Source of the DNA: a virus
Virus record (IMG/VR): IMGVR_UViG_3300048999_000192
Span: 32,001-96,000 of that record
DNA: 64,000 nucleotides
Reading direction: 5' to 3' (one strand)
Shown: one piece after another, positions 24,029 to 60,794 of the stretch
How positions within the stretch are numbered: position 1 is the first letter of the stretch
How the letters are laid out: the number at the start of each line of letters is the position of its first letter
Translations under genes and position numbers: made by a program
The notes under the pieces: model-generated
What the model was told of the DNA's origin: nothing
Databases searched by the model: none
Seen by the model: the letters and a program-made list of their open reading frames with translations, nothing else

Positions 24029-24060
24029 CTCCAAGGTTTCTTGGGGTACCTTGGAGTCAA
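24025..24060 (+). promoter_or_regulatory. Promoter/operator with a perfect 12-bp inverted repeat
   Basis: TTGACTCCAAGG-N12-CCTTGGAGTCAA; -35 TTGACT, -10 TACCTT. Confidence 0.7.
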
Positions 24061-24575: not shown

Positions 24576-24775
24576 GGCTTCCGAAGTTCCCCGAGCGATC
24601 CTGCCGCGAGCACGTCGAGGGCAACGGGCAGATCGGGCTGTGCAGCGTGATCTCGGGTCACCCGGGTCCCTGTGGCTCCCTGACCATCCCGGGCTCCATC
24701 AAGCGGCGGGACGCCTGGGAGGCCGACAATCCGGACTGGGAGAATGGGCTGGCTGAGCACGATCCGTTCGTGTGA
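24572..24775 (+). CDS. Small Cys/His hypothetical protein
   Basis: Coupled ORF; C..C...GHPGPC. Confidence 0.5.
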   Translation: MRLPKFPERSCREHVEGNGQIGLCSVISGHPGPCGSLTIPGSIKRRDAWEADNPDWENGLAEHDPFV

Positions 24776-24869
24776 TGCCTTTTCTTGCCGGATACTCCCA
24801 GAATCCTCGGTAGAGCTGCTACGGTTAGTCCCTAGATACCTCCTCATATCGAAGGAAAAGGGGACAACC

Positions 24870-25064
24870 ATGCCCAAGCCCGTGGAGACCGAAGCCCTGC
24901 TCACCCCCGCCGAGGTCGCGAGCATGTTCCGCGTCGACCCCAAGACGGTCACCCGGTGGGCCAAGGCCGGGAAGCTGACTTCAATCCGCACCCTGGGCGG
25001 CCACCGCCGCTACAAGGAGGCGGAGGTCCGCGCACTCCTGGGCGGGCTCCCGGCGCAGGCCTGA
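24870..25064 (+). CDS. bldC: BldC-family developmental regulator (MerR-like HTH)
   Basis: LLTPAEVASMFRVDPKTVTRWAKAGKLTSIRTLGGHRRYKEAEVRALL is near-identical to the Streptomyces BldC core. Confidence 0.92.
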   Translation: MPKPVETEALLTPAEVASMFRVDPKTVTRWAKAGKLTSIRTLGGHRRYKEAEVRALLGGLPAQA

Positions 25065-25081: not shown

Positions 25082-25168
25082 CGAGCCCCCGCCCTCACCG
25101 GCGGGGGCTCGATCATTTTAAAATGATGGCTGGAATCGCTTCCCTCCCCAGAATCCTTGGAGTAGAGT
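25082..25168 (+). promoter_or_regulatory. Terminator hairpin + AT palindrome + promoter cassette
   Basis: CGAGCCCCCGCC/GGCGGGGGCTCG hairpin, ATCATTTTAAAATGAT, CCCCAGAATCCTTGGAG-TAGAGT. Confidence 0.8.
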
Positions 25169-25201: not shown

Positions 25202-25813
25202 GTGAAGAAGATCCAGACCGAGCTCGTCGAGACCTTCCAGTACGGCCCCGAAGCCCTGATCGGCCGGACGATCGCCGCCTACGGCAAGCCCGTCGGCGAG
25301 ATCACTGGAGTGCAGGACCACGAGGGCCACCGGTATCTCGCGATCGAGGGCCAGGAGATCCCCTTCTGCTTCGGGGCGAACAAGGTCTTCGAACTGGTCG
25401 TGGAGGAGCCCGAGCTGACCCGTGACGGCCCGGCGGAGAACCTCGCGCCCAACCAGCGCCGCGTCGGCCCGATCGTGCTCACCCGCCACGCCAGCGACCA
25501 GTGGACGATGGTCTTCCTGAACGGGCCGCACTACACCTACCTCCGGGTCGACGAGCTGATGATGTACGCCGTCCAGCGCCTCGGCGTGAACCTGGTCGAG
25601 CTGGAGAAGAAGGTCCGGGAGCTCAGTGAGGCGGCTCCCCAGCGCCCGGAGAGCCCCGTGGAGGCCTTGCTACGCGGCTTCGAGGAGCGGGGCACCATGC
25701 TCTGCAAGGCGGAGCGCACGCGGCTTACCACGGCCTTCGAGGCGGGCCGGAAACTCGGCCAGGACGAGGGCTACCGCCAGCACTGCGACGAGATCGACGA
25801 GTCCGGATACTGA
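25202..25813 (+). CDS. Hypothetical protein
   Basis: GAGGAGG RBS after the promoter. Confidence 0.7.
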   Translation: MKKIQTELVETFQYGPEALIGRTIAAYGKPVGEITGVQDHEGHRYLAIEGQEIPFCFGANKVFELVVEEPELTRDGPAENLAPNQRRVGPIVLTRHASDQWTMVFLNGPHYTYLRVDELMMYAVQRLGVNLVELEKKVRELSEAAPQRPESPVEALLRGFEERGTMLCKAERTRLTTAFEAGRKLGQDEGYRQHCDEIDESGY

Positions 25814-35771: not shown

Positions 35772-38080
35772 GTGACCGCTCTGCTGCTGGACGCGCCCCC
35801 CACCCTCGTTGACCCCTTCGACCCCCTGACCGACCCCCGATTCGCCGTCCCCACCCCCAACATCGGCTCCCCGATCTACGACGCCCTCAAGCGTGAGTGG
35901 GCGCGCCGTAACGAGCGCACCGAGCGCGTCGAGAACCGTCGCCAGTCCCGCCGCCGCCGGTGGATGCGCGCCAAGTTCATGGCGCTGATCGGCAGGCACC
36001 TGCCGACGCCGCAGGAGGAGCTGGACGCCAAGATCGCCAAATTCCTGAGAGAGGTCACGTGATCTCCGTAATCCCCGTGCTGGACTACCGGCACCCCGCG
36101 AACGGCGAGGCGGTCCGCGTCGTCGAGAGCCGTAACCCCGAAGGCCACAGCGTCGGGGGCTATGTCGCGCTGTCGATGGACGTCCAGGATCCCTCCAGCG
36201 GTGGCATCAGCGTGCTGGAGCTCCGCTTCAAGGACTCCGTCGCCATGTACGACTTCTTCTCCGGAGCCGGGCCGGTCGGCCAGGCCATCGTGCGTCACAA
36301 CGTCGAGATCGCCAACCGGCCGGTCAACATCGTCGAGCGTGCCTTCGAGGGCACCTTCGCCGACGACCGGGCGCGGGCCGAGATCATCGTCCGTGATCTG
36401 GTCGATGCGGGCCACCTGCCCAAGAAGGCCCTGGAGGACCTGTGAGCGATCCGATCGTCGAGCCGCACCACCTCAGTCTCGCGCCCCACGACATGCCGAA
36501 GATCACCCGCCTGCCGACCGGGCATATCGAGATCTCCCTGTACGGCACGTGGCACAACAGCAACGACCACTGGGGCGGCTACGCGCGGCTGCACATGACC
36601 GAGGCCGACCTGTACGACCTGATCCACCATCGCCTGCCCGAGGTCATGTCGAACTACTTCGAGAGCCGCGAGCCCAGGAACATCATCCTGGCCGCGCTGG
36701 ACGAGGCCAACGGGCCGGACAGCTCGCTGGACGACATGGCCAGCGCCGTGCTGGCCGCGCTGAAGAGCGCCGAGATGCTGACGGAGGGACAGGCATGACC
36801 ACCCCTCATGACAACACCCACCTGGTCTGGCGCATCCAGCGCGCCGGGGCCGAGGGCCTCGTGCTGCAGGGCCGTACGGCCATCGCCCAGACCTCGATCG
36901 TCGACCTGTACTTCCCCGACGAGGAGGAGCTGAACAACTGGCTGACCTTCACGGTGCCCTCCGCGCTGAGCCAGCGCCGCCGGGAGGACGCGGGGCCGGA
37001 CGAGGCCGCCAAGAGCGCCATCCGCCGCGCCGCCGGGAGGCTCGACCAGACGGCGACGCCGTCGGAGATCGCTGACGCGGTCGTGGAGGCCCTGAAGGAC
37101 TCCGGCCTGGTGCTGGCCCCCGTCGAGGTCGCTGCGGTCGCCACGGAGGCTCCTGAGCGTCACAAGGCCTCCCCCTTGCTCTCTCCCGCCATCGAGCCGC
37201 TCGATGACAAGCACTGCCCCGAACCGCACCCGCACAGCCAGCATCACTGGCACAACACGGTGCTGGGCGTCGACAGGATCTGTCCTGGCCTGGACGGGTA
37301 CCTGCTCCGTGGGGGCACGCTCGGCCTGTCCCAGCGCCTCGTCAACACCGAGGAGGACATCGACAAGGGCCGGTGGACCGACCCCGACGGGAACGTCTGG
37401 CGGATGACGATCAAGGGTGAGGGCCCGCCGCTGGAGGACAAGCTGGGTGACCTGTGGTCCTGGGCCGGGGGCTACACCTATCACGAGGGCTGGCCGTGGC
37501 CGCTGCTCTCCCGCAACGACCGCAGCGTGGAGGACATGAGCATGCGGACCGTCCAGAACAGCGTCGGCCCGCTGCACTACACCGATGAGGTGCTCGATGG
37601 CTGAGCCGATCCGCAACGATCTCGCGCCCGCGACCAATCCCTACCTGCGCGCTGTCGAGGCGGCGTTCTGCGAGGACTGGCCGTTGGTGGTGGAGATCCT
37701 GGGGGCCAAGACCCTCTTCGAGCTCGACATGTACGCGCACGCCCTCGCTCCGCTGCTGAGCACGGTGCGCGAGATGCAGATCGCCAAGGCCAGGGAGATG
37801 CTCAGTCGTGAGTGAACAGATCGAGTACTTCTACCTGCTCACCGTCGAGTGGAACGACATCGGCGCGCTGCGTCGCAGGACGTTCACCGACGTGATCTAC
37901 GAGCCTGCCGACGCCAGCCAGATGGACCTGTACTTCGCAGCGACCAAGGACGCGGAGGAGCGGTCCGAGCGCTACGAGGTCTATGACGGCAAGCCCGCTC
38001 CGAGGATGGTCGACGCCACGGTGATCTTCTGGACGTGCGTGCCGAACCGGCCCCCGCGCGAGGGCATCCAGCTCGTCTAA
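35772..38080 (+). CDS. Operon of hypothetical genes (35772-36062, 36059-36445, 36442-36798, 36795-37604, 37597-37815, 37808-38080)
   Basis: Overlapping start/stop codons, RBS present. Confidence 0.6.
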
Positions 38081-55387: not shown

Positions 55388-57337
55388 ATGGGCGCAGAAG
55401 CGGTCAGGCGGCTACGCACCGCCGAGGGCCCAGAGCCCGGCGACGAGCCGACCGCTGAACCCATGCGCGCACAGCGCCGTGGACGCTCTAAGCCCTCCCG
55501 GGAGGACCTGAGGGTCCGGAACCGCACGCGACGCTCGTACGAGACGCCTCAGGCCCGTACGGCCGCCCTCCGCTGCCTCGCCTGCGGCTGCACCGGTCCC
55601 GCCGCCGACCGCTGTGCCGCCTGCGGCTCACTGGCCGTCCAGGCCAACTGGGAGACCGCCCTCGGCCACGGCACCGAGCGCCAGACCGACTGGGACGATG
55701 TCACCCAGGGCTGGAACATGGATCACGCCCGTATCCACCGGGCGATCACACTGCACCCCAGCTCCGACGTCTACGACAAGATCGAGGACCCCGACGTCCC
55801 GGACGAGGAGAAGGCCCAGCACCTGCTGAGCCACCTGCAGAACGGCGGGCGCTCCCTCGGTCGGCACTGGTCGACGGACCTGGACCACGCCAAGCGCGTC
55901 GCGCGGGACGAGGGCTGGTCGGCGATCGGCAACAACTCCTCCGACGACGAGGAGAACGAGTACAAGCTCCCGCTGTCGGTCATGGTGCACGCCAAGTTCC
56001 CCGAGCGGCACCACATCGAGACCGACCCCAGCGTGCTGGAGGAGCACCACGTCACCCCGTGGGGCGGCTCGGAGCACTTCAGCGACGAGTCCGAGGTCCC
56101 GCTGAAGCCGGACGCCAAGGTGCACGTGACGGGGCTGTCCTGGTCGACCAAGACCAACCCGCACCCCAGCGAGTGGACGACCCACCGTTACGACAAGGAC
56201 ACCGAGGCGCACGAGCAGGCGCAGGAGTCCGCGCGCCAGGAGCGCATGGACAACCTGAAGAAGAGCTTCAAGCACGAGGGCAAGCTGGCCAGCGGTGCGT
56301 TCCACGCCCAGCTCCCTCCAGATGCGCACGCGCGGGTGGTGGATGAGAGCCGCCCTGCCGGTGAGAGGGCCAAAGAGCTGCTCGACCACCTGGGCCAGGG
56401 CCACGGCAGCATCCACTGGAGCGAGGGCGCGACCAGCATGCCGCTGGGTCAGGCCAAGATGAGCGCCAACGCGCTGCACCGCAAGACGGGATCGCCAGCG
56501 ATCAGCGGGGAGCTGCGGGGGGTGACCCCCGAGGGCACGACCAAGTACGACGCGGAGCACGGCCTGTCGGGGATCAACCTGCCCATCCACGCGATGCGGT
56601 GGCAGGAGAGCGCACCCGAGCACCCGTACAAGTCGACCGAGCACGAGCACGAGTTTGGGAAGCCGATGACCCATCAGGCTCTGGTACTCGACTGTGAGGC
56701 CTGCGGCCACATGAGCCGTACGGCCTCCTCACGCTGCCGCGCCTGCGGGTCGCTCGCGCTCAAGACGGCCACCGTGCTGATGACCCAGATCGAGCGGGCC
56801 AACCCCGGCGACCAGATGCGCACCCCGCAGGGGCAGTCGGTGCACGTCAAGAAGATCCGCCCGCACGAGACCGACAACACCAAGGTCTACGTGGACACCG
56901 ACCTGGGCACCGCCGTGATGAGCCGTGGCACCGAGGTCAACCTCACCCAGGGGGAGCGCCAGCAGGAGCTCCCTAACTCGGGCAACCCCAGCGGCAACGC
57001 GGGCATGCTGCCCGGCGCCGGGCGCACACCGACGGGAGAGGGTGACGCCGGAGGCGGCGGCTACGCGGCACCACGCTGCCCGCGCGATGGCACCAAGATG
57101 GTCCAGCGCGGGAACACCTGGATCTGCCCCATCGACAACACCACCGCACCACTGTCCTCGGCTCCCGCCGGGATGCAGCCGACCAACCGCGAGACGGGCC
57201 AGATCCTGACCCGCTCGCCAGGACGCAAGCCCCCGCAGACACACCTGTGGGCCACCTATCACACAGCCGGACAGCCTCCGGCGATCGTCCGGCGGGCACG
57301 GCAGGTGCTCGACACCATGGAGGAGATTCGATCGTGA
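55388..57337 (+). CDS. Multidomain protein: Zn ribbons, ART-like domains paralogous to those of the giant ORF, and others
   Basis: IHRA..GRHWSTD..HAKFP..DESEVP..VHVTGLSW; CxxC..CxxC twice; CPRDG..CPID. Confidence 0.75.
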   Translation: MGAEAVRRLRTAEGPEPGDEPTAEPMRAQRRGRSKPSREDLRVRNRTRRSYETPQARTAALRCLACGCTGPAADRCAACGSLAVQANWETALGHGTERQTDWDDVTQGWNMDHARIHRAITLHPSSDVYDKIEDPDVPDEEKAQHLLSHLQNGGRSLGRHWSTDLDHAKRVARDEGWSAIGNNSSDDEENEYKLPLSVMVHAKFPERHHIETDPSVLEEHHVTPWGGSEHFSDESEVPLKPDAKVHVTGLSWSTKTNPHPSEWTTHRYDKDTEAHEQAQESARQERMDNLKKSFKHEGKLASGAFHAQLPPDAHARVVDESRPAGERAKELLDHLGQGHGSIHWSEGATSMPLGQAKMSANALHRKTGSPAISGELRGVTPEGTTKYDAEHGLSGINLPIHAMRWQESAPEHPYKSTEHEHEFGKPMTHQALVLDCEACGHMSRTASSRCRACGSLALKTATVLMTQIERANPGDQMRTPQGQSVHVKKIRPHETDNTKVYVDTDLGTAVMSRGTEVNLTQGERQQELPNSGNPSGNAGMLPGAGRTPTGEGDAGGGGYAAPRCPRDGTKMVQRGNTWICPIDNTTAPLSSAPAGMQPTNRETGQILTRSPGRKPPQTHLWATYHTAGQPPAIVRRARQVLDTMEEIRS

Positions 57338-59523
57338 ACAAGCGCGCAAGCCTTGTCCAGGCGATCACGGCGGCGGGCACCTTCCAGGAGCAGGCCGCCC
57401 TCGTCGCACGACTGGCCGAGCACGACCGCCTCGCGGTCGAGGCGGCCCGCCAGGACCGCGAGTGGGGCACGGCCGGGACCATCGTCGAGCAGACGATGAC
57501 TCCGGTCGCGGTGCACGAGCGCCACACCGCCGCCACCGACTGGATCGGCGACCTGGACACCTCGGGTGGCAACTACCACCAGGAGATCTGCGCGGAGGCC
57601 AGCCTCTGGTACGGCCGGGTCAACGCGATGGTCAAGGGCGACGGCGAGGAGTTCGCCGAGCAGGCGCGCGGCATGGCGCGGCGCACCGCCGGGAAGTACG
57701 GGGAGTCGGCCGACGCCGCCGCCCAGACCTTCCTGGACTACGTCGCGTTCCTGCGCTCCAAGGAGGCGGCCAGCGGCCTGCCCCAGATCGACCAGGAGTT
57801 CGACCCCAAGGACAACCCGGCACCGACCCCGCTGCCGACCGAGACCTTCCCGACCTTCGGGCCGGACGTCCACCCGATCAACGAGGGCGTGGACGGCCCG
57901 CGCACCGGCTCGCCGCTGATCGACGAGATCGAGGGCTACGGCGCCCCGTACGGTCAGGGCGAGGAGAAGCCGGGTGGCCACTCCACCTCCATGGACGAGT
58001 CCGGCAGCTACGCCGAGGTGCCGCTGGGCGCGCCGGGGCAGATCCCGACCGAGGAGTACAGCAAGACCTCGGCGCTGATCGACGCACCGACCGTGGCCAT
58101 CGGCTACGAGATGAACCTGGACGACTACCGGGCCGAGCTGCAGCGTCAGGCGGCGGCCCAGGCCGGTGGTGCCGCCCCTTTCGTCCGTGAGGCCAGGTCG
58201 GCCGAGGACGATGCCCGTCGCCAGGCGTACGGGGACGACGAGACCGAGGATGACAGCCCGGCCTCCAAGGAGGACGACGCGCGCCGTCAGGCGTATGAGA
58301 AGGAGGCCGCGTCCAGCCTGCCGACTCAGCACCAGGTGATCGACCCCAACAACATGCCGACGCCGGAGGCCGACACCTTCAACACCGAGGTGGCCTTCCC
58401 GCTGAACCCGGCCTTCGACAAGCAGGTCAAGAGCGAGGAGCTGCCGCCCGCCGAGAACGTGGCGCAGGCCAAGCGCCGGGCGTTCGTGGCCGGTCTGCTG
58501 GCGCGGGAGCCGAAGACCTGGTCCCCGGTCGAGCGTGCCGAGGTGGCCGACTTCCTGTCCAAGGCGGCCGGGCTCACCAAGCAGGCGGATGAGTTCTCGG
58601 CACCTCACGATGTGCCAGCTAGCGAGACGCCGGTTGGCAACTCGGCCAACACCACCCCGCAGCCTTCCTCTGGCTCCTACGCCAAGGGGCAGACCGACGG
58701 GGCGGCCGACCGTGCCGCCGGTGAGGCCCCGACCTTCTCGGACGCCTCCTCGGGCGCGAGCGACTACGTCAAGGGCTACAGCGAGGCCTACAGCGGCGCG
58801 CAGGGCGCCTCTGTGCCCCAGGACGTACCGGTCTCGATGGGCGGCGACAACGGGCAGATGCAGAACGCTGCGGACTCCCAGAACGCCGCGCAGACGGCCA
58901 TGGCGGCCAAGACGGCGACCATCAAGAGCCCGTTCAGCGGCCTGGTGCGCGAGGCGAGCCTGAGCACGCCGGACTTCGTCAAGGGCTTCAACTTCGCCCG
59001 CAACTGGAAGCCCGGCCAGCGGCTGGTCGCCACCGGCTCGGCGGAGTTCGAGGAGGGCCTGTACGCGGGCATCACCGAGCGCCCGAAGCTGCAGGCCTCC
59101 TGGGTCGTGGCGCACCGTAAGGCGGCCAAGGCCCTGAACAAGCCCGAGCTGATGAAGCGCATCAGCATCCACGAGCGCGTCACCCGCCGCTTCGCCCGCA
59201 AGAACCCCAGCGCTCTGGTGCGGGGCTTCTACGTGCAGGCGGGGACGTCCACCGACCTGCTGACCATGGGCCCTGGCGCGAGCCCGGACCCGATGGGCGG
59301 CACGCCGATCAATGGGCCCGGCACCCCGCCGCCCATGGAAGGCGGCACCGACCCGGCGCGGCCGGGTGGGCCCGCGATGTACAACGGCGCGCCGCCGTAC
59401 GGCTCGCCGGTCGCTCCGGACCCGGTGATGGGCCAGCAGGGCACGCCGGACGCCGCGCAGCGCCAGGCGGCGTTCCGCACGGTCGTCCAGGCCGAGCTCA
59501 AGAAGATGCAGGAGGCATCGTGA
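57334..59523 (+). CDS. Putative virion/head-associated protein with internal repeats
   Basis: GGAGGAG RBS + GTG; repeated KEAAS(G/S)LP..DP..TP..FP and EDDARRQAY; Pro/Gly-rich. Confidence 0.55.
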   Translation: MNKRASLVQAITAAGTFQEQAALVARLAEHDRLAVEAARQDREWGTAGTIVEQTMTPVAVHERHTAATDWIGDLDTSGGNYHQEICAEASLWYGRVNAMVKGDGEEFAEQARGMARRTAGKYGESADAAAQTFLDYVAFLRSKEAASGLPQIDQEFDPKDNPAPTPLPTETFPTFGPDVHPINEGVDGPRTGSPLIDEIEGYGAPYGQGEEKPGGHSTSMDESGSYAEVPLGAPGQIPTEEYSKTSALIDAPTVAIGYEMNLDDYRAELQRQAAAQAGGAAPFVREARSAEDDARRQAYGDDETEDDSPASKEDDARRQAYEKEAASSLPTQHQVIDPNNMPTPEADTFNTEVAFPLNPAFDKQVKSEELPPAENVAQAKRRAFVAGLLAREPKTWSPVERAEVADFLSKAAGLTKQADEFSAPHDVPASETPVGNSANTTPQPSSGSYAKGQTDGAADRAAGEAPTFSDASSGASDYVKGYSEAYSGAQGASVPQDVPVSMGGDNGQMQNAADSQNAAQTAMAAKTATIKSPFSGLVREASLSTPDFVKGFNFARNWKPGQRLVATGSAEFEEGLYAGITERPKLQASWVVAHRKAAKALNKPELMKRISIHERVTRRFARKNPSALVRGFYVQAGTSTDLLTMGPGASPDPMGGTPINGPGTPPPMEGGTDPARPGGPAMYNGAPPYGSPVAPDPVMGQQGTPDAAQRQAAFRTVVQAELKKMQEAS

Positions 59524-60794
59524 CGACCGATCAGTTCGCGTCCCTGTGGACCGAGGCCTCCCGGGACGTGGAGCGCGAGAACGCGCTGCGTGCCGAGGCC
59601 CTGGCCAGTGCCAAGCTGGGCGCGGTTTGGCCCTTCTTCGCCCTGGCGCAGTCCAAGCCGGAGCTGGAGCATCGCAAGGCGCTGGCACGTGAGTCCCTGG
59701 AGGAGATCGCGGCCAGCACCGGCCTGCCGCTGGCCCGCATCGCCGAGATCATCGACCAGCACTTCACCCTGCTCGCCGAGGCCCGCATGTCCAAGCAGGC
59801 CGAGGAAGAGGAGGGCGGCCAGTGGGAGGTCGTCGACAAGGCTACGGACGCAAAGGTCGCAGGCCCTTTCGATGATCGGGAGAAGGCACAAGAGGCCATC
59901 GCGGACAACGACTCCGGGCTGCCTTCTTCCGAGCTGAAGATCGTGCCGGTGAACGAGTCCGAGGACGAGGGCGAGGAGAAAGAGGCCAGCCTCCGTCACC
60001 AGGCCATCCCCGAGGGCGAGAACATCCTGGCCGAGACGGTCAACGACGCCTCTGGTGCCTTCCCGGCCTCGGTCGAGAAGCTGCCCGAGCACGATGAGGG
60101 CCCGGACGCCAACATCCCGCCGGAGGCCTACTCCACGGTCAGCATGCCCCAGCCGGGCGACTCGGGTGCGAGCAACCCGCAGTCCATGGCGGTCAAGATC
60201 GACATGAGCGTGGCCGAGGCGCGCAAGATCATGCAGCTCGCACTCACCGGCAGTCGTAAGACCGCCGTCGGCGAGTACGTCGACCCGTCCCAGCAGCAGG
60301 GTCAGCAGGCCCCGATGCCGGACGCGCCGGAGTCGGCCACCGGGATGGACACCGGCATGCCGCCGGAGGGCCAGCCGACTCCGGGCCAGGATCCGGGTGG
60401 CCAGGTCGCCACCGACCCCTACCCGATGACCACCAAGCCCGCCCAGCAGCCTGGCGCGCCGGGCGGCGGCGGGGACATGGGCGGGGACACCGAGGGGGAC
60501 GGCGGAGACCCCGTCTCGGACCAGATCGACCAGGTCACCTCGGCGATTCGCAGGGACAACCCCGGGGTCAGCACGTCGGTCGCCAGGCGGGTCGCCCGCC
60601 AGGCCGTGGCCAAGATGCTGACGGCCGCCGGGAGCGACGGGATCGACTACACCCACCCGACGATCCCCAAGGCCGCCCCGGCGGGCGGCGAGGAGGACGA
60701 GGACGAGAGCCTGGCCGGTCACGCCGCCGAGACGGCCGGAGCCGGTGCCGCCCTGAAGGTCCTGCCCAAGGTTCTTCCGCTACTCGCCCTGTAG
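59520..60794 (+). CDS. Putative virion/scaffold-like acidic protein
   Basis: GGAGG RBS, helical N-terminus, acidic low-complexity remainder, KQA/KEA/KTA motifs. Confidence 0.5.
   Translation: MTTDQFASLWTEASRDVERENALRAEALASAKLGAVWPFFALAQSKPELEHRKALARESLEEIAASTGLPLARIAEIIDQHFTLLAEARMSKQAEEEEGGQWEVVDKATDAKVAGPFDDREKAQEAIADNDSGLPSSELKIVPVNESEDEGEEKEASLRHQAIPEGENILAETVNDASGAFPASVEKLPEHDEGPDANIPPEAYSTVSMPQPGDSGASNPQSMAVKIDMSVAEARKIMQLALTGSRKTAVGEYVDPSQQQGQQAPMPDAPESATGMDTGMPPEGQPTPGQDPGGQVATDPYPMTTKPAQQPGAPGGGGDMGGDTEGDGGDPVSDQIDQVTSAIRRDNPGVSTSVARRVARQAVAKMLTAAGSDGIDYTHPTIPKAAPAGGEEDEDESLAGHAAETAGAGAALKVLPKVLPLLAL

What the first reader, a model, noticed from the sequence alone, without database searches (positions are those of the whole stretch)
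24870..25064. Phage-encoded BldC, nearly identical to the host sporulation regulator
Seen: a 64-aa ORF whose core matches Streptomyces BldC almost residue for residue, with its own promoter-like site (24785-24816) and a downstream terminator. Known: BldC restrains entry into sporulation and binds AT-containing direct repeats by head-to-tail oligomerisation. Inference: the phage keeps hyphae vegetative, or uses BldC on its own AT-rich promoter elements.
Basis: partly seen in the sequence, partly recalled or inferred. Interest (0 to 1): 0.75.

Follow-up and report, generated by a model that had tools for sequence, protein, structure and literature searches.

The report
Phage-borne copy of regulator BldC
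A 155-kb uncultured soil phage of high-GC actinobacteria carries, as a self-contained accessory gene, a faithful copy of BldC, the small DNA-binding protein that holds back sporulation in Streptomyces, so the phage probably alters its host's BldC-controlled genes during infection; this is untested and the host is unknown.

Summary
Window 24870-25064 (+) encodes a 64-aa protein that scores 107.7 bits on NCBIfam HTH_BldC (cut-off 77). It is identical to S. coelicolor BldC (PDB 6AMA) at 53 of 58 aligned residues and keeps all 21 published DNA-contact and head-to-tail oligomerisation residues.

The record is a real phage: a myovirus of 155,098 bp with a major head protein, tail sheath and DnaE, and no integrase. 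The protein is therefore not an excisionase.

The gene has a copy of the phage's promoter core, a good ribosome-binding site and a strong terminator (-29.8 kcal/mol). It lies at the edge of a 31-kb hypervariable accessory region. The nearest retrievable relatives lack it.

Synonymous sites are saturated against 80 cellular bldC genes (dS about 1, dN/dS about 0.06). This indicates long purifying selection, not recent capture.

- BldC is 86-90% identical across many actinobacterial families, so it cannot name the host.
- The ATCATTTTAAAAT elements are palindromes at about -40 to -60 of promoters, not 9-bp direct repeats. I found no BldC-box arrays in the genome.

At least 125 IMG/VR contigs encode BldC relatives, and earlier notes of this scan describe phage BldC on other DNA. 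I found no publication reporting it.

The parts
24870..25064 (+). bldC-like gene, 64 aa plus stop (P0001)
   Evidence: NCBIfam HTH_BldC 107.7 bits against cut-off 77. 53/58 residues identical to PDB 6AMA. 21/21 functional residues kept.
24852..24864 (+). Ribosome-binding site (AAGGAAAAGGGGA), 6 nt before the ATG
   Evidence: Read directly from the sequence. It favours the ATG at 24870 over the upstream ATG at 24744.
24785..24816 (+). Promoter-like site: TTGCCG-N20-TAGAGC enclosing the phage promoter core CCCAGAATCCTCGG (24797-24810)
   Evidence: The core matches the recurrent motif exactly (genome-wide list). It is not a canonical sigma-70 site, and the upstream AT palindrome is absent.
24757..24773 (+). 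Weak hairpin at the end of the upstream 67-aa gene, followed by a T-rich tail
   Evidence: Terminator-like scan. Fold -14.8 kcal/mol, z -2.2. Read-through from upstream genes cannot be excluded.
25082..25119 (+). Intrinsic terminator of bldC: 12-bp G+C stem, then AUCAUUUU
   Evidence: -29.8 kcal/mol, z -5.5, 0 of 200 shuffles fold as well.
25112..25127 (.). AT palindrome ATCATTTTAAAATGAT, the start of the next gene's promoter cassette (not part of bldC)
   Evidence: 6 copies in the window against 0.01 expected. All 18 runs of 8 or more A/T in the genome belong to this element class.
25147..25168 (+). Promoter core CCCAGAATCCTTGG-AG-TAGAGT of the downstream 203-aa gene (25202-25813)
   Evidence: It shows that bldC is bounded by its own terminator and the next promoter.

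Best explanation
Shown: the gene encodes a bona fide BldC orthologue. It is carried as an independently bounded accessory gene (promoter core, ribosome-binding site, strong terminator) by an integrase-less 155-kb myovirus of an unidentified high-GC actinobacterium.

Inferred:
- The recognition helix, the wing and the head-to-tail interface are all unchanged. The phage protein should therefore bind the same AT-rich 9-bp direct repeats (AATTNNNNC) as cellular BldC, and it could co-oligomerise with the host's own BldC.
- Made from a phage promoter during infection, it would raise the BldC dose on the host's BldC regulon. In Streptomyces that regulon includes whiI, whiD, sigF, smeA-sffA, hupS and the dcw cluster.
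- This would hold developmental and sporulation-septation genes off and keep the host in the growing state in which the phage can replicate.
For: Identity as BldC: (21/21 residues from PMC5859096, read).

Not an excisionase: no Phage_integrase or Resolvase family anywhere in a record rated 100% complete.

Kept by selection:
- dS has a median of 1.0 (minimum 0.6) and dN/dS is about 0.06 against 80 cellular bldC genes. Nucleotide identity is at most 86%.
- Two metagenomic proteins, P0003 and P0036, share the lineage marks K50 and the GGLPAQA-type tail. P0036 also carries the translated 5' leader of this window, which points to sister phages that keep the gene.

Accessory, moron-like status: own terminator and promoter core. 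Relatives G001 and G002 lack the gene. It sits at the left edge of the only non-collinear block between G000 and G001.

No target sites in the phage itself: no BldC-box arrays and no enrichment of tandem AATTNNNNC-like units.

Biology from the literature:
- BldC represses developmental genes and sustains vegetative growth (PMC6428758).
- Streptomyces development limits the spread of phage, and mature mycelium is less susceptible (PMC10117723).
Against: - The host is unknown. BldC at 85-90% identity also occurs in non-sporulating or poorly known actinobacteria such as Cellulomonas, Nocardioidaceae and Acidothermaceae, where its role is undefined.
- There are no expression data. The promoter is non-canonical.
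- The nearest retrievable relatives do without the gene, so it is dispensable for the phage type.
- BldC also activates some developmental genes, including bldM and whiH (PMC6428758), so the net effect of extra BldC is not obvious.
- A lytic mycobacteriophage's small Xis/BldC-like protein, D29 Gp36, regulates phage genes rather than host genes (PMC12266134).
Confidence: 0.45

Rival explanations
1. Phage-directed regulator or architectural protein. The BldC copy binds the phage's own DNA, for example the AT tracts of the promoter cassettes, and times or boosts phage transcription. This is what D29 Gp36 does in a lytic mycobacteriophage.
For: - BldC reads AT-rich narrowed minor grooves.
- All 18 runs of 8 or more A/T in this 67% G+C genome belong to the promoter-linked element.
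- The BldC-less relative G001 has no such run and no such promoter core.
- D29 Gp36 is a precedent (PMC12266134).
- A whiI-like site, TGTCCGAATTGGTAGATTT, lies at the start of the tail-sheath gene.
Against: - The AT elements are palindromes, not 9-bp direct repeats. Only 1 of about 12 copies fits two consecutive W4-N4-C units.
- Their position, about -40 to -60 in two classes 10 bp apart, fits an UP-like element or another factor.
- Tandem BldC-like units are not enriched (3 observed against 1.0 +/- 1.0 expected, and 38 against 50.5 for the loose pattern). TRF finds no arrays.
- Other BldC-bearing viral loci mostly lack AT tracts.
- The comparison with G001 is a single pair at 49% DnaE identity.
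- The single whiI-like site is within chance once all operator words are counted.
Confidence: 0.25
2. Host-directed, but not about sporulation. In a non-sporulating or unknown host the extra BldC acts as a nucleoid-associated protein or division-gene regulator (dcw cluster, chromosome condensation genes), reshaping host chromatin or blocking septation for the phage's benefit.
For: - BldC orthologues of 82-90% identity occur in many orders without Streptomyces-type development.
- BldC binds across the dcw cluster and resembles architectural proteins (PMC6428758).
- Residues are fully conserved.
Against: No BldC function has been described outside Streptomyces in the papers read, so there is nothing to anchor the mechanism. 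Sequence alone cannot separate this reading from the best explanation.
Confidence: 0.2
3. Passenger gene: a captured host gene of no use to the phage.
For: It is absent from the relatives G001 and G002 and lies in a hypervariable region.
Against: - dS of about 1 with dN/dS of about 0.06 and 21/21 functional residues intact.
- Phage-type promoter core and terminator.
- Apparent sister-phage copies.
- Nucleotide identity is at most 86% to all 80 cellular bldC genes retrieved.
Confidence: 0.05
4. Excisionase or recombination directionality factor.
For: TIGR01764 'excise' domain, 34.9 bits against cut-off 28.8. BldC and Xis share the fold (PMC5859096).
Against: No tyrosine or serine recombinase in the complete genome. 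The BldC model scores three times higher.
Confidence: 0.02

Closest known systems
BldC of Streptomyces coelicolor / S. venezuelae (SCO4091; PDB 6AMA, 6AMK; NCBIfam NF033787; PMC5859096, PMC6428758)
   Same: A single MerR-like winged HTH of about 65 aa. 53/58 residues are identical. All DNA-contact residues (K26, R30, H46, R47, R48 and others) and all head-to-tail interface residues (L11, E16, F21, R22, V23, W31, I40, T42, L43, G44) are kept. The gene is monocistronic.
   Different: It is encoded by a lytic-type phage, not a chromosome. The N-terminal 8 residues and the C-terminal tail differ. R50K is seen in 0 of 80 cellular sequences but 10 of 80 viral ones. It uses a phage promoter core. DNA binding and phenotype are untested.
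Mycobacteriophage D29 Gp36 (PMC12266134)
   Same: A small phage-encoded wHTH with the Xis/BldC fold in a lytic actinophage. It binds direct repeats and oligomerises weakly.
   Different: Gp36 is only a structural analogue. It reads GC-rich GCGGC repeats and regulates phage genes. The protein here is a near-copy of cellular BldC, and I found no repeats for it in the phage genome.
Phage-encoded sporulation sigma factors of Bacillus phages (Schwartz et al., PMC9429907), and actinophage WhiB homologues (from my own knowledge, not checked here)
   Same: A phage carries a homologue of a host developmental or dormancy regulator and can thereby alter entry into dormancy.
   Different: The protein family and host phylum differ. 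The Bacillus cases have experimental support and this one has none. This genome has no WhiB and no sigma-70 family gene.
Lambda and Pukovnik Xis (excisionases)
   Same: The same fold and head-to-tail filament on direct repeats. The TIGR01764 domain hit is above its cut-off.
   Different: There is no integrase in the genome, and the sequence belongs to the BldC subfamily.

Membership tests
BldC family (NF033787) | Sequence scores above the curated family cut-off | tested here: met
   107.7 bits against cut-off 77, profile positions 2-49 of 49.
BldC family (NF033787) | A lone MerR-like wHTH of about 68 aa, without coiled-coil dimerisation or effector domain | tested here: met
   64 aa. HTH_17/MerR covers residues 10-57 and nothing else fits. 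It aligns end to end with 6AMA.
BldC family (NF033787) | DNA-contact residues A15, D24, K26, T27, T29, R30, K33, K36, H46, R47, R48 | tested here: met
   All identical. The residue list comes from PMC5859096.
BldC family (NF033787) | Head-to-tail interface: L11, E16, F21, R22, V23, W31, I40, T42, L43, G44 | tested here: met
   All identical. L43 is hydrophobic, unlike in classical MerR proteins.
BldC family (NF033787) | Cooperative binding to AT-rich 9-bp direct repeats with DNA distortion | not testable with these tools
   Needs EMSA, fluorescence polarisation or a structure. Only inferred from residue identity.
BldC family (NF033787) | Controls entry into development (bald, precocious sporulation when lost) | not testable with these tools
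   Needs complementation of a bldC mutant. The host of the phage is unknown.
Excisionase / RDF | Works with a cognate integrase encoded by the same element | tested here: not met
   No PF00589 or PF00239 match in the 155-kb record, rated 100% complete.
Classical MerR regulators | C-terminal coiled coil and effector-binding domain; symmetric dimer on a palindrome | tested here: not met
   The protein ends 7 residues after the wHTH.
Phage moron / auxiliary gene | Own promoter and terminator, variable presence among related phages | tested here: met
   Promoter core and terminator. The gene is absent from G001 and G002 and lies in a non-collinear block. Promoter activity is not shown.

The most novel reading that the evidence does not exclude
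A lytic actinophage makes its own fully functional BldC to hold the host's developmental brake on. This would counter the developmental 'containment' response by which sporulating actinomycetes limit phage spread. It would be the first case of a virus taking over the Bld cascade, and it would make phage control of actinomycete development testable with one small gene.
Probability: 0.3. Interest if true: 0.75.

Novelty: new member of a known kind. Interest (0 to 1): 0.55.

Why it matters
BldC is a central brake on Streptomyces development and antibiotic onset. A phage copy with every functional residue intact suggests that viruses tune this switch, much as Bacillus phages carry sporulation sigma factors.

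If confirmed, it would link phage infection to developmental timing and specialised metabolism in soil actinomycetes. It would also give a simple, portable reagent: a 64-aa protein to test in bldC mutants.

At least 125 IMG/VR contigs carry BldC relatives, grading from faithful copies to diverged ones. The family may therefore be a common phage tool that has so far been annotated only as 'excisionase family' or 'MerR-like HTH'.

Tried and rejected
1. Host genus from BldC. The tree has 167 rows and 68 columns, and 74 of its 105 inner branches fall below 80% support. The query sits among cellular sequences with a few viral ones. Nucleotide identity is at most 86% to any of the 80 cellular bldC genes retrieved. 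The approach was rejected as uninformative.

2. DNA of the sister phages.
- A degenerate pattern for the conserved 5' leader found nothing in metagenome contigs.
- The downstream 203-aa protein found no relative there.
- Promoter-motif patterns found nothing relevant in viral contigs.

3. Synteny with the other BldC-bearing viral loci: none shares neighbouring genes with this window. None shares the flanks of cellular bldC either, so they are not host fragments.

4. BldC operators in the phage. I tried exact and mismatched whiI units, three tandem-unit patterns against shuffles, and TRF. There is no enrichment and there are no arrays.

5. Close isolates: megablast against the phage collection found nothing. 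The best DnaE identity is 33-37%. No cultured phage record has a BldC relative above 68% identity, and none of the matching records is a Streptomyces phage.

6. Neighbouring genes gave no informative Pfam or PHROG hits.

7. I did not predict a structure, because 91% identity to a solved structure makes it redundant.

Full report
**1. The observation**

The ORF is at 24870-25064 (+) and gives 64 aa. A purine-rich ribosome-binding site ends 6 nt before the ATG. The longer frame from 24744 overlaps the previous gene and the promoter, so it is unlikely to be used.

- Pfam finds only HTH_17, MerR and MerR_1 over residues 10-57.
- NCBIfam gives HTH_BldC at 107.7 bits (cut-off 77), far above the generic 'excise' domain at 34.9 bits.
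- Against PDB sequences the best matches are the two BldC structures: 6AMA (E 7e-30, 53/58 identical) and 6AMK (E 1e-28).

**2. Residue check**

Schumacher et al. 2018 (PMC5859096) name two sets of residues:
- DNA contacts: A15, D24, K26, T27, T29, R30, K33, K36, H46, R47, R48.
- Head-to-tail interface: L11, E16, F21, R22, V23, W31, I40, T42, L43, G44.

I aligned the phage protein to a 68-aa Streptomyces BldC with the same numbering. It keeps 21 of 21. Between residues 10 and 58 only T19S and R50K differ. K50 occurs in 0 of 80 cellular sequences and 10 of 80 viral ones.

**3. It is a phage, and not one that integrates by a known recombinase**

The window is bases 32001-96000 of an IMG/VR virus record of 155,098 bp, which CheckV rates 100% complete.

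The genome encodes:
- DnaE-type polymerase (phrog_405, E 2e-297), a UvsX-like recombinase and RuvC;
- a major head protein (E 6e-103) and a tail sheath (E 5e-65).

It is far from every cultured phage; DnaE identity is at most 37%, and megablast finds nothing. The genome has no Phage_integrase, Resolvase, WhiB or sigma-70 region-2 match. With no partner recombinase, an excisionase role is very unlikely.

**4. Gene anatomy and genomic setting**

The spacer is too long and the -10 lacks its final T, and the sigma-70 scan calls nothing.

The site does enclose an exact copy of CCCAGAATCCTNGG followed by TAGAG. This is the core of a promoter family found 15 times in the window against 2.35 expected.

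Downstream, a 12-bp G+C hairpin with a U-rich tail folds at -29.8 kcal/mol, z -5.5. The next promoter cassette follows at once.

The nearest retrievable relatives lack any BldC match: G001 (153,911 bp, terminal repeats, DnaE 49% identical) and G002. G000 and G001 are collinear through the replication, terminase, polyprotein, head and tail modules. The exception is window ~24,000-55,000, where almost nothing matches. bldC lies at the left edge of this accessory block. The gene therefore has the architecture and distribution of a moron-like accessory gene.

**5. Evolution**

Cellular BldC is extremely conserved. The best genome hits, at 86-90% identity, include Actinoallomurus, Streptomyces, Kitasatospora, Actinomadura, Nocardiopsis, Acidothermaceae, Motilibacteraceae, Sporichthyaceae and Streptosporangiaceae. 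Named metagenomic clusters add Cellulomonas, Nocardioidaceae, Frankiales and Vallicoccus.

A tree of 167 rows on 68 columns is largely unresolved. The query falls inside the cellular crown group, next to a few viral and unnamed sequences. The host genus therefore cannot be read from this protein.

At the DNA level:
- identity to 80 cellular genes is at most 86%;
- third-codon-position identity at identical residues has a median of 0.55, against 0.65 between cellular genes;
- NG86 gives a median dS of 1.0 (minimum 0.6) and dN/dS of about 0.06.

This rules out recent capture from any of these 80 species and shows that the amino-acid sequence has been held by selection.

Two metagenomic proteins share K50 and the GGLPAQA-type tail: P0003 (65 aa, contig 32 kb) and P0036 (107 aa). 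P0036 also carries a translated leader matching the frame upstream of this gene. They look like sister phages that keep the gene.

**6. How common phage BldC is**

- IMG/VR holds at least 125 contigs that encode a relative. Identity among the 80 loci kept runs from 59% to 88%, and many contigs are 130-166 kb.
- None of the 80 kept loci shares the flanks of cellular bldC, so they are not host fragments. None shares neighbours with this window.
- All 40 sampled viral copies hit the HTH_BldC model.
- 9 of the 80 keep all 21 functional residues.
- Cultured phages have no copy above 68% identity, and no Streptomyces phage record matches.
- Two full-text searches found no paper reporting a phage-encoded BldC orthologue. 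The closest is D29 Gp36, a structural analogue that binds GC-rich repeats and regulates phage genes (PMC12266134).
- Earlier notes of this scan describe phage BldC copies, and BldC-box arrays, on other DNA. These are unverified leads. I used them to decide to look for such arrays here.

**7. The AT-rich elements**

GATTTTAAAATC-type palindromes (about 12 copies) and ATTTTATTTTCTT variants account for all 18 runs of 8 or more A/T in the genome. They lie upstream of the promoter core in two spacing classes 10 bp apart, at roughly -40 to -60. This suits an UP-like element or another factor.

They are palindromic, whereas BldC needs head-to-tail 9-bp units (AATTNNNNC). Only one copy fits two consecutive units. 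Tandem units are not enriched in the genome (3 against 1.0 +/- 1.0 expected; the loose pattern gives 38 against 50.5). TRF finds no arrays.

G001, which lacks BldC, has no A/T run and no such core. That is a co-occurrence, but it rests on one distant pair. Other BldC-bearing loci mostly lack AT tracts.

One whiI-like site, TGTCCGAATTGGTAGATTT, lies at the start of the tail-sheath gene, outside the window. It is within chance once all operator words are considered.

**8. Mechanism**

Because the DNA-reading and oligomer surfaces are unchanged, the simplest prediction is that the phage protein behaves as extra BldC on host operators and can mix with host BldC.

- In S. venezuelae, BldC represses whiI, whiD, sigF, smeA-sffA, hupS and dcw genes and sustains vegetative growth (PMC6428758).
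- Development at plaque edges limits phage spread, and mature mycelium is less susceptible (PMC10117723).
- A phage-made BldC could therefore prolong the permissive state. This parallels the sporulation sigma factors of Bacillus phages (PMC9429907).

Shown: identity, intact residues, phage context, gene boundaries, selection. Inferred: expression, host binding, benefit to the phage. The unknown host and BldC's dual activator and repressor roles are the main uncertainties.

**9. Verdict**

This is a new member of a known kind: a BldC-family protein in a phage, and one more case of a phage carrying a host-type regulator. It is of moderate to good interest, it recurs in metagenomic phages, and I found no published report of it.

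Noticed in passing
window 24000-55000 (G000 56000-87000): A 31-kb block with almost no homologues in the otherwise collinear relative G001. It is packed with small genes, many behind the palindrome-core promoters, and looks like a hypervariable accessory region between the polyprotein/LigT-like genes and the head module.
   Followed up: partly
window 25112, 26604, 29657, 43764, 46516, 47732; also genome 15771, 16661, 23733, 107556, 134576: GATTTTAAAATC-type palindromes, together with ATTTTATTTTCTT variants, account for all 18 runs of 8 or more A/T in the 155-kb genome. They sit upstream of the promoter core in two classes exactly 10 bp apart. The relative G001 has no A/T run of 8 or more at all.
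   Followed up: partly
G000 131161-131180 (window coordinate 99161, outside the window); L175:16162: The tail-sheath gene starts with GTGTCCGAATTGGTAGATTT, which shares a 12-nt exact block with the Streptomyces whiI BldC operator and has a second AT-ending unit 9 bp on. About 0.8 kb upstream (G000 130377-130403) three 9-bp-phased AT-headed units occur. Either may be chance.
   Followed up: partly
L003:4986-5423 and L004 (same protein); L058, L065; L061: Some viral BldC relatives are fused to other parts: an 80-aa C-terminal extension with no Pfam hit (L003/L004), a Cys-rich tail (L058, L065), or a second HTH copy in tandem (L061).
   Followed up: partly
L008:4038, L019/L020:3879-3914, L022:3976, L078:4427-4455: In several large BldC-bearing viral contigs a 14-19-bp pure A/T tract lies 0.5-1.1 kb upstream of the BldC gene, in DNA that is otherwise 67-71% G+C.
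   Followed up: no
window 24031-24044 (- strand) and surroundings: A palindromic variant of the promoter core (CCAAG-N4-CTTGG) is nested in a longer inverted repeat, TTGACTCCAAGG...CCTTGGAGTCAA, between the 475-aa gene and the membrane-protein gene. It may be a divergent promoter or an operator.
   Followed up: no
window 55388-60794 and 36162-37604: Large ORFs in and near the head region have no PHROG match at E 1e-5, although the major head protein and tail sheath elsewhere match strongly. Much of this phage is unlike anything in the PHROG families.
   Followed up: no
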